Shown in pieces: positions 18,619 through 22,066 of a stretch of 42,655 nt of DNA. Source of the DNA: an uncultured Alphaproteobacteria bacterium (GTDB lineage: Bacteria; Pseudomonadota; Alphaproteobacteria; CBDVDY01); NCBI GenBank assembly GCA_965372875.1, contig CBDVDY010000001.1, positions 1 through 42,655 on the forward strand, in the 5' to 3' direction. Position 1 is the first letter of the stretch. The number at the start of each line of letters is the position of its first letter. Under the pieces are notes generated by a model that was given only the letters and a program-made list of their open reading frames with translations, made no database searches and was not told the DNA's origin. Position numbers and translations under genes: made by a program.

Positions 18619-19965
18619 TCAATCGCCCAGCCCCGCCTTCTTGAGCGCCGCATTCTGGCGCCGGGCCAGGGCGTTCACGTCGAAATCCTGGATCAGCTCG
18701 TGGAACAGCGCGTACCAGTTGATCTCGGCCTTGAGGCGCAGGAACACCGAGCCCAGGCCGATGGCGGCGCGGTCCATCAGCACGAACTCGCGCGGCGGCT
18801 CGACCCCGCCCAGGCGCCGCAACTCCAGGTGCACCTTCTCGGCCACGCGGGCGCCGTAGACGACGCCCTGGTCCCCATCCTGGATGCGTCGGTGACGGTC
18901 GTCCATCAGCGGCGCGTAGACGAACTCGGCCCACATATTCAGAACGTCGATCAACTCGCGCGACAGGCCGGTGAAACCCCAGGTCTCGTAGGCGCTCACC
19001 GCCAGCGCCTCGTCGTCGTTCAGCAGCGCGTGGTAAAGGTCGATTACCGCCCGCACGAAGCTCGGCGGAAATACCCGGATGCAACCGAAATCGAGCAGGT
19101 TGATGCCGTGGTCCGGGCGCGCGGTGTAATTGCCCAGATGCGGGTCGCCGTGGATTACGCCGTATTGGTAAAACGGCACGTACCAGGCGCGGAACATATT
19201 ATGGGCGATGGCGTTGCGCTGGTCCTGATGGGCATCGACGAGGGCGATCAGGGGTTCGCCCTCGAGCCAGGTCATGGTCAGGAGCCGCCCGGTGGACAGC
19301 TCGGGCACCGTTTCGGGGATGTGCACGCCGTTTTCCCGGCGCAGCATGGCGGTATAGAGGCCCATGTGCCGTGCCTCGCGCGCATAGTCGAGCTCCTCGC
19401 GCAGGCGTTCGGCGATCTCGGCATGGATGTGCTTGGTCGAGATCGCGCGGTCGTAACGTTCGTAAACCGCAAAGACGAGCCTGAGCTGGCGCAAATCGGC
19501 CGCCACCACCGAGCCCATGTCCGGGTACTGCAGCTTGCAGGCCAGCGCCCGCCCGTCGTGGCCGGTTGCCCGATGGACCTGACCGAGCGAGGCGGCGGCC
19601 GAGGCCACGTGACTGAACTCGGCGAATTTCGCCTGCCAGTCGGGGCCGAGCTCGGTTGCCATGCGCCGGCGCACGAAGGGCCAACCCATCGCCGGCGCGT
19701 TGGCTTGCAGCTCGGCCAGCTCGGCGGTGTATTCCGCCGGCAGCACGTCCGGGATCGTAGACATGATTTGCGCCACTTTCATGAGCGGCCCCTTGAGACC
19801 GCCCAGCGCTTCCTTCAGCTCGCGCGCGCTGCGAGCCCGGTTGACGGAAAGGCCGAGGTAACGCTCGCCGGCCACGCGCGCCGCCAGCCCGCCGACCGCG
19901 CGGCCGACGCGGGCGTAGCGCCGCACCCGTCCCGAAAGTGTGCTGTCGTCGGATCGTCCGGCCAT
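18619..19965 (-). CDS. ABC1/UbiB (AarF/ADCK) atypical kinase family protein
   Basis: KVAQIMSTIPDVLPAEY, AASLGQVH, HGDPHLGN, LDFG motifs. ATG at 19963-19965(c); an alternative TTG lies at 20001. Confidence 0.85.
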   Translation of the reverse strand: MAGRSDDSTLSGRVRRYARVGRAVGGLAARVAGERYLGLSVNRARSARELKEALGGLKGPLMKVAQIMSTIPDVLPAEYTAELAELQANAPAMGWPFVRRRMATELGPDWQAKFAEFSHVASAAASLGQVHRATGHDGRALACKLQYPDMGSVVAADLRQLRLVFAVYERYDRAISTKHIHAEIAERLREELDYAREARHMGLYTAMLRRENGVHIPETVPELSTGRLLTMTWLEGEPLIALVDAHQDQRNAIAHNMFRAWYVPFYQYGVIHGDPHLGNYTARPDHGINLLDFGCIRVFPPSFVRAVIDLYHALLNDDEALAVSAYETWGFTGLSRELIDVLNMWAEFVYAPLMDDRHRRIQDGDQGVVYGARVAEKVHLELRRLGGVEPPREFVLMDRAAIGLGSVFLRLKAEINWYALFHELIQDFDVNALARRQNAALKKAGLGD

Positions 19966-20045
19966 GACTGGCACAATCCATTGTGCGAGGGCCGATGGCA
20001 AGGGGTGGGCTGCGGTCGCGGCCGGTCAGCCGGAGGAAAGGATAA

Positions 20046-20212
20046 CCACAGAGGCACAGAGACACAGAGGGGGTCGCATCAACTCCGTTCCTCTGTTGAG
20101 CTAGTCGAAGCATGAACTTGTCAGTGCTAAAAACTCGCTCCCTCGCCCTTTGACGAGTTCAGAGAGAGCGCTTGGTAGGTACGGGAATCTCTGTGTCTCT
20201 GCGACTCTGTGG
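20046..20212. repeat. 167-bp element bounded by 24-bp near-perfect inverted repeats, each built from three 8-nt CACAGAGN units (MITE-like or structured RNA)
   Basis: Left arm ccacagaggcacagagacacagag (20046-20069). Right arm ctctgtgtctctgcgactctgtgg (20189-20212). 22 of 24 positions are complementary. The 119-bp core holds an AACTCG-N16-CGAGTT hairpin. Confidence 0.6.
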
Positions 20213-20263
20213 TGAAATTATTGTACGGGACAGTCCCGAGACATCGGCCTGGATGGGCCGTCG

Positions 20264-22066
20264 TCAGTCCATCGCCTCAAGCTCATCGATGAAGCCGGCG
20301 ACGATTCCCAGCCCCTTGGCCCAGAAGTCCGCGCTCGAGGCGTCGAGCCCGAACGGCGCCAGCAGCTCCTTGTGGCGCAACGTGCCGCCGGCCTTCAGCA
20401 GCGCGAGGTATTTGTCGGCGAAAGCGGCCTCGGAATCCTGATAGACGGCGTAGAGCGAGTTCACCAGGCAGTCGCCGAAGGCGTAGGCGTAGACGTAGAA
20501 CGGCGAATGAATGAAATGCGGGATGTAGGCCCAGTAATGCTTGTAGCTGTCCTCGAACCGGATTGCCGGGCCCAGGCTTTCGCCCTGGATATCGAGCCAG
20601 ATCTCGCCCAACCGCTCCGGCAGCAACTCGCCGCCGCGCCGTTCGTCGTGGATTCTGTGCTCGAATTCGTAGAACGCGACTTGGCGCACCACCGTATTGA
20701 TCATGTCCTCGATCTTGCCGGCGAGCATGGTGCGCCGCCGCGCCGCGTCGCGTTCGCCGTCGAGCATGGCGCGGAAGGTCAGCATCTCGCCGAACACCGA
20801 GGCGGTCTCGGCCAGCGTCAGCGGCGTGTCGGCCATCAGGTGCCCCTGATCCGCGGCCAGCACCTGATGCACGCCGTGCCCCAGTTCGTGCGCCAGCGTC
20901 ATCACGTCGCGCACCTTGCCCTGGTAGTTGAGCAGGATATACGGGTGCGCGCTGGGCACCGTCGAATGCGAAAACGCGCCCGGCGCCTTGCCGGGCCGCA
21001 CGGGGGCGTCGATCCAGCTTTCGTCGAAGAACCGCTTTCCGACCTCCGCCATGTCCGGCGAAAAGGCGGCGTAGGCGTCGAGTACGGTAGCTTGCGCCTC
21101 GTGCCATGGAATGACGCGGTTTTCGTCCTCGGGAAGCGGCGCGTTCCGGTCCCAGTACTCCAGCTTGTCGAGGCCGAGCCAGCCGGCCTTGAGCGCGTAG
21201 TAGCGGTGCGAGAGGGAGGGGTAGGAATCCTTGACCGCGGCCACCAGCGCGTCGACCACCTCGTCCTCGATCAAATTGGCGAGGTTGCGCGCCGACACGG
21301 GGCGCGGATAGTCGCGCCACTTGTCCTCGATCTCCTTGTCCTTGGCCAGGGTGTTGGTGATCAGCGCGAAGGTGCGGACGTTTTCGCTGAATACCCGGCC
21401 GAGCGACTTCGCCGCTTCTTCGCGCGTCGCCCGGTCCGGTTCCGAGAGAAGATGCAGCGCTTCGGCGCTGGTCAGATCCTTGCCGCCCACGGGGAAGCGC
21501 AGATCGGCCATGGTCTCGTCGAACAGCCGGATCCAGGCCGCGCGGCCGGCGACGCTCTTATCGTGCAAGAGCCGCTCGGCCTCGTCGCTCAACTGGTGCG
21601 GCCGGAAGACGCGGACATCGCGCAGCCAGGGACGGTAGCGGGCCAGCTCGGACGCCGCGAGCTTGTCCTCGAGCGCCTTGTCCTCGATGCGGTTGATCTC
21701 GAGCGTGAAAAACAAAAGGTGGGCGGAGATATCGGTCACCCGCTCCCGCATGCCCTGAAAGAATTGGCCGATCTCGGGGTCGGCCATGTCGCCGGCATAG
21801 ACGAGATGGGCGTAGCTCATCACCCGCGAGAGCGTCTCGTCGATGCGCTCGTATTCCGCCACCGCCGTGCCCAGCGCCGCGCCATCGAGTTCGGCCAGGC
21901 GGCCTTTATAGGAATCCGCGAACGCTTTTGCGCCGGCCTCGGATTTGCCGAGCGCGTCCGCGAGTTCCGGCGAGTCGGGTGCTGGATAAAGGTCGTTCAG
22001 GTCCCACGCCGGCAACTCGCCAAGGCTTTCGTGGTGGGATATCGTCCGGCGCGCGGCGTCGGTCAT
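20264..22066 (-). CDS. pepF: Oligoendopeptidase F family (M3B) metallopeptidase
   Basis: 600 aa, HELGHGVH zinc motif. ATG at 22064-22066(c) with GAGGAG 6 nt upstream. Confidence 0.9.
   Translation of the reverse strand: MTDAARRTISHHESLGELPAWDLNDLYPAPDSPELADALGKSEAGAKAFADSYKGRLAELDGAALGTAVAEYERIDETLSRVMSYAHLVYAGDMADPEIGQFFQGMRERVTDISAHLLFFTLEINRIEDKALEDKLAASELARYRPWLRDVRVFRPHQLSDEAERLLHDKSVAGRAAWIRLFDETMADLRFPVGGKDLTSAEALHLLSEPDRATREEAAKSLGRVFSENVRTFALITNTLAKDKEIEDKWRDYPRPVSARNLANLIEDEVVDALVAAVKDSYPSLSHRYYALKAGWLGLDKLEYWDRNAPLPEDENRVIPWHEAQATVLDAYAAFSPDMAEVGKRFFDESWIDAPVRPGKAPGAFSHSTVPSAHPYILLNYQGKVRDVMTLAHELGHGVHQVLAADQGHLMADTPLTLAETASVFGEMLTFRAMLDGERDAARRRTMLAGKIEDMINTVVRQVAFYEFEHRIHDERRGGELLPERLGEIWLDIQGESLGPAIRFEDSYKHYWAYIPHFIHSPFYVYAYAFGDCLVNSLYAVYQDSEAAFADKYLALLKAGGTLRHKELLAPFGLDASSADFWAKGLGIVAGFIDELEAMD

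What the first reader, a model, noticed from the sequence alone, without database searches (positions are those of the whole stretch)
20046..20212. 167-bp intergenic element with 24-bp inverted termini made of triple CACAGAGN repeats
The element lies between the pepF stop and the ABC1-kinase start. The left arm is c-CACAGAGg-CACAGAGa-CACAGAGg. The right arm is its reverse complement at 22 of 24 positions (CTCTGTGt-CTCTGCGa-CTCTGTGg). The arms enclose a 119-bp non-coding core with its own AACTCG-N16-CGAGTT hairpin. The 8-nt periodic heptamers in inverted orientation look like iterated protein-binding sites or MITE/REP-type termini. If transcribed on either strand, they would form a 24-bp stem. 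I saw no clear target-site duplication and no second copy in this window.
Basis: seen in the sequence. Interest (0 to 1): 0.6.

Follow-up and report, generated by a model that had tools for sequence, protein, structure and literature searches.

The report
Orphan hairpin repeat of GxxExxY cassettes
The 167-bp palindrome between pepF and the ABC1-kinase gene is a real, gene-less copy of a hairpin repeat family found in many bacterial phyla, and in other genomes its arms bracket a small uncharacterised nuclease gene, so it looks like a relic of an undescribed nuclease-plus-repeat element rather than a chance palindrome.

Summary
Window 20045-20069 and 20189-20213 are 25-nt inverted arms (23/25 complementary), each made of three CACAGAG units spaced 8 nt apart. 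Shuffled sequence gives none.

The element is not unique. This 79%-complete alphaproteobacterial assembly holds at least 18 such loci, all intergenic. Their arms are about 80-90% identical, but their loops are as unlike as shuffled sequence.

The same arms occur in over 120 stretches from many phyla, one archaeon and 74 viral contigs. Copy number reaches about 1,600 arms per Gemmatimonadetes genome.

In a minority of copies the loop is a ~130-aa GxxExxY / PDDEXK_3 nuclease gene. A same-class genome with 129 arms has one such gene, flanked by perfect CACAGAG arms. This genome has none in its assembled part.

Three relatives have pepF and ABC1 overlapping by 8 nt or 7-34 nt apart; here the gap is 298 nt.

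Best reading: an orphan foldback copy of a GxxExxY-cassette repeat, analogous to REP/RAYT and NTS/Ssn. That the nuclease reads or cuts the arms is inferred, not shown. Arm mismatches show no RNA-wobble bias, and no Rfam family or paper matched.

The parts
20045..20069 (.). Left arm: AC + CACAGAGg CACAGAGa CACAGAG (three heptamers, period 8)
   Evidence: The identical 23-mer is found in this genome and in many phyla.
20189..20213 (.). Right arm: CTCTGTGt CTCTGCGa CTCTGTG + GT. It is the reverse complement of the left arm at 23 of 25 positions, so this is a slightly decayed copy.
20070..20188 (.). 119-nt loop/core. It has no relative among the loops of the other copies in this genome (best 50% identity, the same as shuffled sequence). 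GC is 52-54% against 65.6% for the genome.
20090..20117 (+). Degenerate copy (CCTCTGTTGAGCTAGTCGAAGCATGAAC) of a second, unrelated palindromic repeat of this genome (CCTCATGCTGAGCCTGTCGAAGCATGAGG), nested in the loop
   Evidence: The intact repeats flank a small GIY-YIG gene on contig C130.
20132..20159 (.). It is part of the extended imperfect stem in the predicted fold.
   Evidence: (I8)
19966..20263 (-). The whole 298-nt pepF-ABC1 spacer. Three relatives have -8 to 34 nt here, so essentially all of it is lineage-specific inserted DNA. A weak outer inverted repeat lies at 19990-20004 / 20235-20249.
   Evidence: I4
20264..22066 (-). pepF-type M3 oligoendopeptidase gene (upstream neighbour). 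Its stop codon is 50 nt from the start of the arm (20213).
18619..19965 (-). ABC1 atypical kinase-like gene (downstream neighbour). The start ATG at 19965 was chosen by alignment with orthologues.

Best explanation
The element is a gene-less ('orphan') foldback copy of a dispersed hairpin repeat family. Its conserved part is a pair of inverted arms, each built of three CACRGAG heptamers at 8-nt spacing. In full-length members the loop is a ~130-aa GxxExxY (TIGR04256 / PF13366, PD-(D/E)XK fold) nuclease gene. The block was inserted into the normally tight pepF-ABC1 junction in this lineage. By analogy with REP/RAYT and NTS/Ssn, I infer that the phased heptamers are recognition units for the cognate nuclease, probably on single-stranded or hairpin DNA, and that this interaction created or maintains the family. 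In this genome no such gene is assembled, so the copy is most likely an inert relic that is co-transcribed with pepF and ABC1 and folds into a long hairpin. My odds for each step: membership of the family and insertion at this site, shown, about 0.9. Arms are read by the nuclease, inferred, about 0.4. The nuclease drives spread of the hairpins, inferred, about 0.2.
For: The genome holds 25 exact arms at 18 or more loci, with none for the reversed control pattern. The same arms flank GxxExxY ORFs in L077, L117 and L141 (150 bits to TIGR04256) and in a dozen loci from other genomes (L152, L153, L157, L158, L161-163, L173, L185, L197). 25 of 30 GxxExxY loci have inverted tandem-repeat arms of some class, with period 8, 9 or 10. 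Arm class clusters on a tree of the nuclease domain alone: 6 changes against 12.8 when shuffled, 0 of 500 shuffles as low. G189, a complete same-class genome with 129 arms, has a single GxxExxY gene, and it sits between perfect CACAGAG arms. Three Gemmatimonadetes genomes with about 1,470-1,640 arms each have one gene, also CACAGAG-armed. Arms are conserved (91% and 79% pairwise identity) while loops are at the shuffled level (50% against 47%). The orthologous pepF-ABC1 junction is 7 nt, 34 nt or an 8-nt overlap in three relatives, against 298 nt here. The closest relative (81% pepF identity) also has a CACAGAG arm right after pepF. 100 of 114 hairpins lie outside called genes, a median of 15 nt after a stop codon, and they are rare between divergent genes (2 of 61).
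Against: No GxxExxY gene was found in this genome (tblastn; HMM), nor in G302 (46 arms), G109 (14 arms), the archaeon G056 (91 arms) or the 66 hairpins on viral contigs. Hairpins therefore persist without the gene. Presence or absence of arms and of the gene across 300 genomes of the phylum is associated (8/14 against 45/286), but the association largely disappears within the one family that supplies most cases. There is no target-site duplication and no clean empty-versus-filled pair. In three genomes at 88-91% nucleotide identity, almost all hairpins are at the same sites, so movement is slow or absent. No cutting or binding has been shown for any GxxExxY protein. The structure model is shallow and has no significant solved neighbour. 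Only about 3% of CACRGAG-armed elements carry the gene.
Confidence: 0.55

Rival explanations
1. The hairpins are the primary, self-standing entity, kept or spread by some host process or an unknown factor. GxxExxY genes are secondary lodgers that home into hairpin loops, so the window's element never had a nuclease and does not depend on one.
For: About 97% of CACRGAG hairpins have no ORF. Several genomes with tens of hairpins, and the viral contigs, lack the gene. Loops are landing pads for other elements: nested arm classes in L040, L045, L136 and own contig C374, a second repeat inside this very element, and an NTS-like repeat in the L032 loop. The arm-class and protein-clade correlation is equally expected if the nuclease homes to one hairpin class.
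Against: This leaves unexplained why an exact 23-nt sequence is kept from Acidobacteriota to Pseudomonadota and an archaeon. Where a genome has one GxxExxY gene and hundreds of hairpins, the gene carries exactly that arm class.
Confidence: 0.2
2. It is a host-serving RNA element. Transcribed with pepF and ABC1, the 25-bp stem acts as a 3'-end stabiliser, an RNase III processing site or a factor-dependent attenuator that uncouples the two genes.
For: Both strands fold strongly. Family members sit a median of 15 nt after stop codons, mostly between co-directional or convergent genes and rarely between divergent ones. The arms read the same on either strand, so the effect would not depend on orientation.
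Against: No Rfam family matches, only sub-threshold miRNA-like hairpin look-alikes. There is no U-tract terminator. Arm mismatches are not biased to G.U on the sense strand (38 against 43, p = 0.66). Structure alone does not need an invariant heptamer sequence across phyla. Such an effect may still exist as a by-product.
Confidence: 0.15
3. The arms are double-stranded DNA binding arrays (iteron-like) for a host regulator, partition protein or nucleoid protein.
For: Three direct heptamers per arm in two-fold symmetry look like iterated binding sites.
Against: Repeat period differs between arm classes (8, 9 or 10 nt), so there is no fixed helical phasing. Complementarity extends beyond the conserved arms into locus-specific flanks in 30% of copies, against 8% in the control, which points to hairpin formation rather than duplex binding. 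There is no link to particular neighbouring genes, and the elements are rare in promoter-bearing divergent spacers.
Confidence: 0.05
4. It is a fortuitous palindrome with no biological meaning.
For: None beyond its single occurrence in the window.
Against: 0.00 matches are expected by chance. There are 25 exact arms in the genome and none for the reversed control. Hundreds of identical arms occur in other phyla.
Confidence: 0.01

Closest known systems
REP / REPIN repeats with their RAYT (Y1 HUH) transposase
   Same: Short palindromic intergenic repeats in tens to hundreds of copies. They lie just downstream of genes. One gene for a small nuclease-type enzyme is itself flanked by the repeats. 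Copies form hairpin doublets.
   Different: Here each arm is a tandem array of heptamers, not a self-palindromic REP with a GTAG head. The associated enzyme has the PD-(D/E)XK fold, not HUH. The genome has no RAYT. The same arm sequence crosses phyla, whereas REPs are lineage-specific (that last point is from my own knowledge).
NTS/SRM hairpin repeats with Ssn GIY-YIG single-strand nucleases (PMC11893778, 2025)
   Same: A small nuclease gene is flanked on both sides by hairpin repeats that also occur in hundreds of orphan copies. The distribution crosses phyla. Nuclease and repeat variants go together.
   Different: The nuclease fold differs (PD-(D/E)XK against GIY-YIG). The repeat design differs (phased heptamer arrays against a ~30-nt single hairpin). 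No biochemistry exists for GxxExxY. An Ssn-like GIY-YIG gene with its own, different hairpin repeats coexists in this genome.
MITEs (miniature inverted-repeat transposable elements)
   Same: Small, non-coding, terminal inverted repeats, multi-copy, with rarer ORF-bearing relatives.
   Different: There is no target-site duplication. Internal sequences of copies are unrelated. The ORF of the long form is a 130-aa nuclease, not a DDE transposase.
Foldback (FB) elements of eukaryotes (from my own knowledge)
   Same: Long inverted arms composed of short tandem repeats, a variable middle segment, and only some copies carrying genes.
   Different: FB elements are eukaryotic, kilobase-sized and associated with a different transposase. 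The resemblance is architectural only.
23S rRNA intervening sequences with their small ORFs (from my own knowledge)
   Same: A small ORF in the loop of a long stem formed by inverted repeats, with ORF-less versions also existing.
   Different: IVSs lie inside rRNA genes and are removed by RNase III. These elements lie between protein-coding genes, and no processing is known.

Membership tests
GxxExxY-cassette phased-repeat hairpins (no published name) | Two inverted arms, each of 2 or more tandem heptamer units with period 8-10 | tested here: met
   Three units per arm, period 8, 23/25 complementary
GxxExxY-cassette phased-repeat hairpins (no published name) | The same arm sequence brackets a GxxExxY / PF13366 gene somewhere | tested here: met
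   L077, L117, L141, L152, L153, L157, L158, L161-163, L173, L185, L197
GxxExxY-cassette phased-repeat hairpins (no published name) | Cognate GxxExxY gene present in the same genome | tested here: not met
   No tblastn or HMM hit. The assembly is 79% complete and breaks at these repeats, so absence is not proven.
GxxExxY-cassette phased-repeat hairpins (no published name) | The nuclease binds or cuts the arms | not testable with these tools
   Needs biochemistry. Only co-inheritance of arm class and protein clade was shown.
REP/REPIN-RAYT | RAYT (PF01797) gene in the genome, flanked by the repeats | tested here: not met
   No PF01797 match in the genome, while 6 control genomes match
REP/REPIN-RAYT | Each repeat unit is itself an imperfect palindrome | tested here: not met
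   The arm CACAGAGGCACAGAGACACAGAG has no self-complementarity. Only the two arms pair with each other.
MITE | Direct target-site duplication flanking the inverted repeats | tested here: not met
   Flanks ...GGATAAC / GTGAAATT... are not direct repeats. Across the family the flanks tend to be inverted, not direct.
MITE | Internal sequence shared among copies and derived from an autonomous IS | tested here: not met
   Loops are 50% identical against 47% for shuffled sequence
Ssn / SRM system | Repeat matches the NTS/SRM motif and is associated with a cd10448 GIY-YIG gene | tested here: not met
   The published SRM pattern has no match in window 20001-20260. The arms are associated with PD-(D/E)XK genes, not GIY-YIG genes.
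Intrinsic terminator | GC-rich stem followed by a U-tract | tested here: not met
   No terminator-like site on either strand in 19800-20500
Any Rfam RNA family | Covariance-model match at or near the gathering score | tested here: not met
   Nothing for the window element at E up to 10 beyond noise. Short copies give only sub-threshold miRNA-precursor look-alikes.

The most novel reading that the evidence does not exclude
GxxExxY (PDDEXK_3) nucleases and phased-heptamer foldback hairpins would form a third, undescribed nuclease-repeat partnership, alongside RAYT-REP and Ssn-NTS. It would span bacteria, archaea and viral contigs. A single ~130-aa PD-(D/E)XK enzyme would read arrays of 8-10-nt units on single-stranded or hairpin DNA, with class-specific recognition, and would service up to about 800 hairpins per genome. 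The window's element would be one orphan site of that system.
Probability: 0.2. Interest if true: 0.8.

Novelty: new variant of a known kind. Interest (0 to 1): 0.5.

Why it matters
PF13366/TIGR04256 is a very large family whose function is listed as unknown in the only survey I found (PMC3424549). If its members read phased-heptamer hairpins, a whole class of intergenic repeats would gain an explanation. These repeats reach about 1,600 arms in some genomes and break short-read assemblies such as this one. The family could also yield sequence-specific nucleases with programmable-looking modular sites, as happened for Ssn. For this locus the practical point is smaller. A 298-nt hairpin-forming insert separates two genes that are adjacent or overlapping in relatives, and this may alter their co-expression.

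Tried and rejected
- Rfam, at permissive thresholds on the window and on short copies, gave nothing real.
- A literature search for the arm sequence gave 0 papers. Searches for GxxExxY, PF13366 and TIGR04256 gave only incidental mentions.
- Promoter and terminator consensus scans found none.
- I looked for a GxxExxY remnant in the core and anywhere in the genome and found none.
- RAYT search found none.
- The RNA-wobble test on arm mismatches against transcription direction showed no bias.
- The presence/absence association of arms and gene in 300 genomes of the phylum was positive overall but confounded by one over-sampled family.
- An empty-site search among three related Gemmatimonadetes genomes found one site that differs, but the sequence there is replaced rather than cleanly empty.
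- The AlphaFold model came from only 3 sequences (pLDDT 79, and only one of five models was confident). The Foldseek search against PDB gave only weak PD-(D/E)XK-type hits (E of 0.1 or more), so nothing can be said about the nearest enzyme type. A PDB sequence search gave no hit.
- The published SRM pattern does not match the second repeat family of this genome.

Full report
**Observation.** Window 20045-20069 reads ACCACAGAGGCACAGAGACACAGAG, and 20189-20213 reads CTCTGTGTCTCTGCGACTCTGTGGT. These are 25-nt arms, 92% complementary, 119 nt apart. The inner AACTCG-N16-CGAGTT hairpin is at 20132-20159. The triple-heptamer pattern with up to three mismatches occurs twice in the window, against 0.00 in 100 shuffles. 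Either strand folds into one long hairpin of about -78 kcal/mol, z about -6. The neighbours are an M3 oligoendopeptidase (pepF type, 20264-22066) and an ABC1 kinase-like gene (18619-19965), both on the minus strand. GC falls to 52-54% in the element, against 65.6% for the genome.

**It is a repeat family.** The window's own assembly has 3.0 Mb, 391 contigs and 79% completeness. It holds 25 exact arms and 32 with up to three mismatches, and none for the reversed control pattern. They make 15 complete inverted pairs plus three arms with no partner in the assembly, two of them cut off at a contig start. Several contigs begin or end at the repeat. All loci are intergenic and occur in tandem, convergent and one divergent context. 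Period-8 triple repeats in this genome are almost exclusively this class. The arms are 91% (left) and 79% (right) identical between copies. The loops are 50% identical, which is the shuffled level (47%). Only C153/C310 (77%) and the two C139 copies (66%) share a loop. The window's loop has no relative.

**The family crosses phyla.** They came from Acidobacteriota, Planctomycetota, Alpha- and Betaproteobacteria, Gemmatimonadota, Verrucomicrobiota, Spirochaetota, Chloroflexota, Nitrospinota and a Methanotrichaceae archaeon, and included cultured strains.

- The arms almost always come as convergent pairs. Loops are 10-202 nt in 100 of 105 pairs.
- Copy number ranges from a single pair to about 1,470-1,640 arms in three Gemmatimonadetes genomes. 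Pelomonas has 181 and the archaeon 91.
- In 300 genomes of the window's phylum, 14 have the arms. One of these is a complete same-class genome (G189) with 129. Forty same-class relatives had none.
- 74 stretches of IMG/VR viral contigs hold 66 such hairpins.
- Hairpins lie outside called genes in 100 of 114 cases, a median of 15 nt after the upstream stop. The context counts are tandem 47, convergent 12, divergent 2.
- In 30% of copies, complementarity runs 5 or more bp beyond the conserved arms into locus-specific flanks, against 8% in a partner-shuffled control.

**Link to a nuclease gene.** Three arm pairs in the sample are 385-419 nt apart. In each, the loop is one ORF of about 130 aa that matches TIGR04256 'GxxExxY' (150 bits) and Pfam PDDEXK_3. 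In these three, the left arm is read in frame at the ORF's N-terminus (MNHRGTETQR in L117).

- Fourteen of 16 arm-bearing genomes have at least one GxxExxY gene.
- 25 of 30 such loci are bracketed by inverted arrays of tandem units. The unit differs by subfamily (CACAGAG, CGCAGAG, CGCAGAT, CACGGAT, CGCCAAG, CGCAAAG and others) and the period is 8, 9 or 10.
- On a tree of the nuclease domain alone, with arm-encoded residues removed, the CACRGAG label needs 6 changes against 12.8 when shuffled (0 of 500 as low). A cross-phylum clade of nine proteins is almost purely CACRGAG. The class is not monophyletic and the tree is poorly resolved.
- G189's only GxxExxY gene lies between perfect CACAGAG arms. 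The single gene of each Gemmatimonadetes genome does too.
- This one-gene, many-hairpins pattern is the pattern of REP/RAYT and of the recently published NTS/Ssn system.

**What speaks against a simple 'own nuclease' model.** This genome has no GxxExxY gene in its assembled part. Neither do G302 (46 arms), G109, the archaeon or the viral contigs. Across the phylum sample the gene is present in 8 of 14 arm-bearing genomes against 45 of 286 others, but most cases come from one over-sampled family in which the gene is common anyway. There is no target-site duplication. Among three genomes at 88-91% nucleotide identity, nearly all hairpins in an 8-kb region are at the same sites. One site differs, but it is not a clean empty site. 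No GxxExxY protein has a solved relative by sequence. A shallow AlphaFold model gave only weak, generic PD-(D/E)XK neighbours.

**This locus.** The organism is an alphaproteobacterium; the best named pepF relatives are Stellaceae, Azospirillaceae and Skermanella. In three relatives with 74-77% pepF identity, pepF and ABC1 are 7 nt apart, 34 nt apart or overlap by 8 nt. Here they are 298 nt apart. The closest relative (81%) has a CACAGAG arm 16 nt after the pepF stop, on a contig that ends inside it. The spacer is therefore inserted DNA. Inside the loop, 20090-20117 is a decayed copy of a second palindromic repeat of this genome. Intact copies of that repeat flank a small GIY-YIG gene on contig C130, an Ssn-like arrangement. 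Nesting of one hairpin class in the loop of another recurs elsewhere: L040, L045, L136 and own contig C374.

**RNA or DNA?** No Rfam family matches and there is no terminator or promoter consensus. Every transition mismatch in the arms is a G.U wobble on one strand and an A.C clash on the other. Among hairpins between co-directional genes, the sense strand carries 38 G.U and 43 A.C (p = 0.66). Pairing in the sense transcript therefore shows no sign of selection. Sequence-level conservation, together with the varying period between classes, fits recognition of each unit by a protein, without fixed helical phasing.

**Earlier notes of this scan.** After reaching the reading above, I found that other agents had described the same kind of cassette in other genomes. 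Later checks had confirmed the framing of PF13366 genes by inverted repeats, but priced the 'selfish element cut by its own nuclease' claim at 8-20%. I treat these as leads. My own tests agree on the architecture, and they agree on the lack of evidence for movement or cutting.

**Verdict.** The element is an orphan member of a cross-phylum foldback repeat family tied to GxxExxY nuclease cassettes. I found no publication of this tie. The closest published analogues are REP/RAYT and NTS/Ssn. The mechanism is inferred, not shown.

Noticed in passing
own genome contig C130:6950-7560 (L292) and C201:4300-5200 (L293): Small single-domain GIY-YIG genes (about 100 aa) are flanked on both sides by arrays of two ~29-nt hairpin repeats, CCTCATCCTTCGTCAAGCTCAGGATGAGG and CCTCATGCTGAGCCTGACGAAGCATGAG, with about 17-23 matches each in the genome. 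The architecture is like the published Ssn/NTS system, but the published SRM search pattern does not match these repeats.
   Followed up: partly
own genome contig C374:52-192: A CACAGAG-armed element contains a second, inner inverted pair built of CACCAAG units (90-112 / 136-158). This is a hairpin of another arm class nested in the loop.
   Followed up: no
L032:4199-4370: The loop of a CACAGAG hairpin in an alphaproteobacterial MAG contains CGTCATTCCCGCGAAAGCGGGAATC and its inverted copy. This matches the Neisseria NTS core published for Ssn, so two nuclease-associated repeat types are nested.
   Followed up: no
G045, G046, G054 (Gemmatimonadetes; loci L100, L072, L135, L161-L163): Each genome has about 1,470-1,640 exact arms, with short (~10-nt) conserved loops, and a single GxxExxY gene at an orthologous site in all three genomes.
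   Followed up: partly
G056 (Methanotrichaceae archaeon MAG; L037): 91 exact arms in regular inverted pairs but no GxxExxY gene. This is either cross-domain presence of the hairpin or a binning problem.
   Followed up: no
L205-L278 (IMG/VR viral contigs): 66 CACRGAG hairpins on contigs classed as viral, none with a GxxExxY gene. They may be prophage or host fragments, or phages may carry the repeat.
   Followed up: partly
family-wide; e.g. L031, L053, L066, L084, L129: The bases just outside the left arm are very often TAAC, TGAAC or TCAC, mirrored on the right by GTTA, GTTCA or GTGA. The element end therefore often carries a stop codon, and hairpins sit a median of 15 nt after the upstream gene's stop.
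   Followed up: partly
own genome contigs C8, C188, C374, C375: Contigs start or end within or right beside the repeat, so this family is one cause of the assembly's fragmentation. Copy number, and absence of the nuclease gene, are therefore lower bounds.
   Followed up: no
own genome contig C58:8330-8632: A 303-nt CACRGAG-armed element lies between divergent genes. Its loop holds further GC-rich palindromic repeats (ccctctcccc...ggggagagg type).
   Followed up: no
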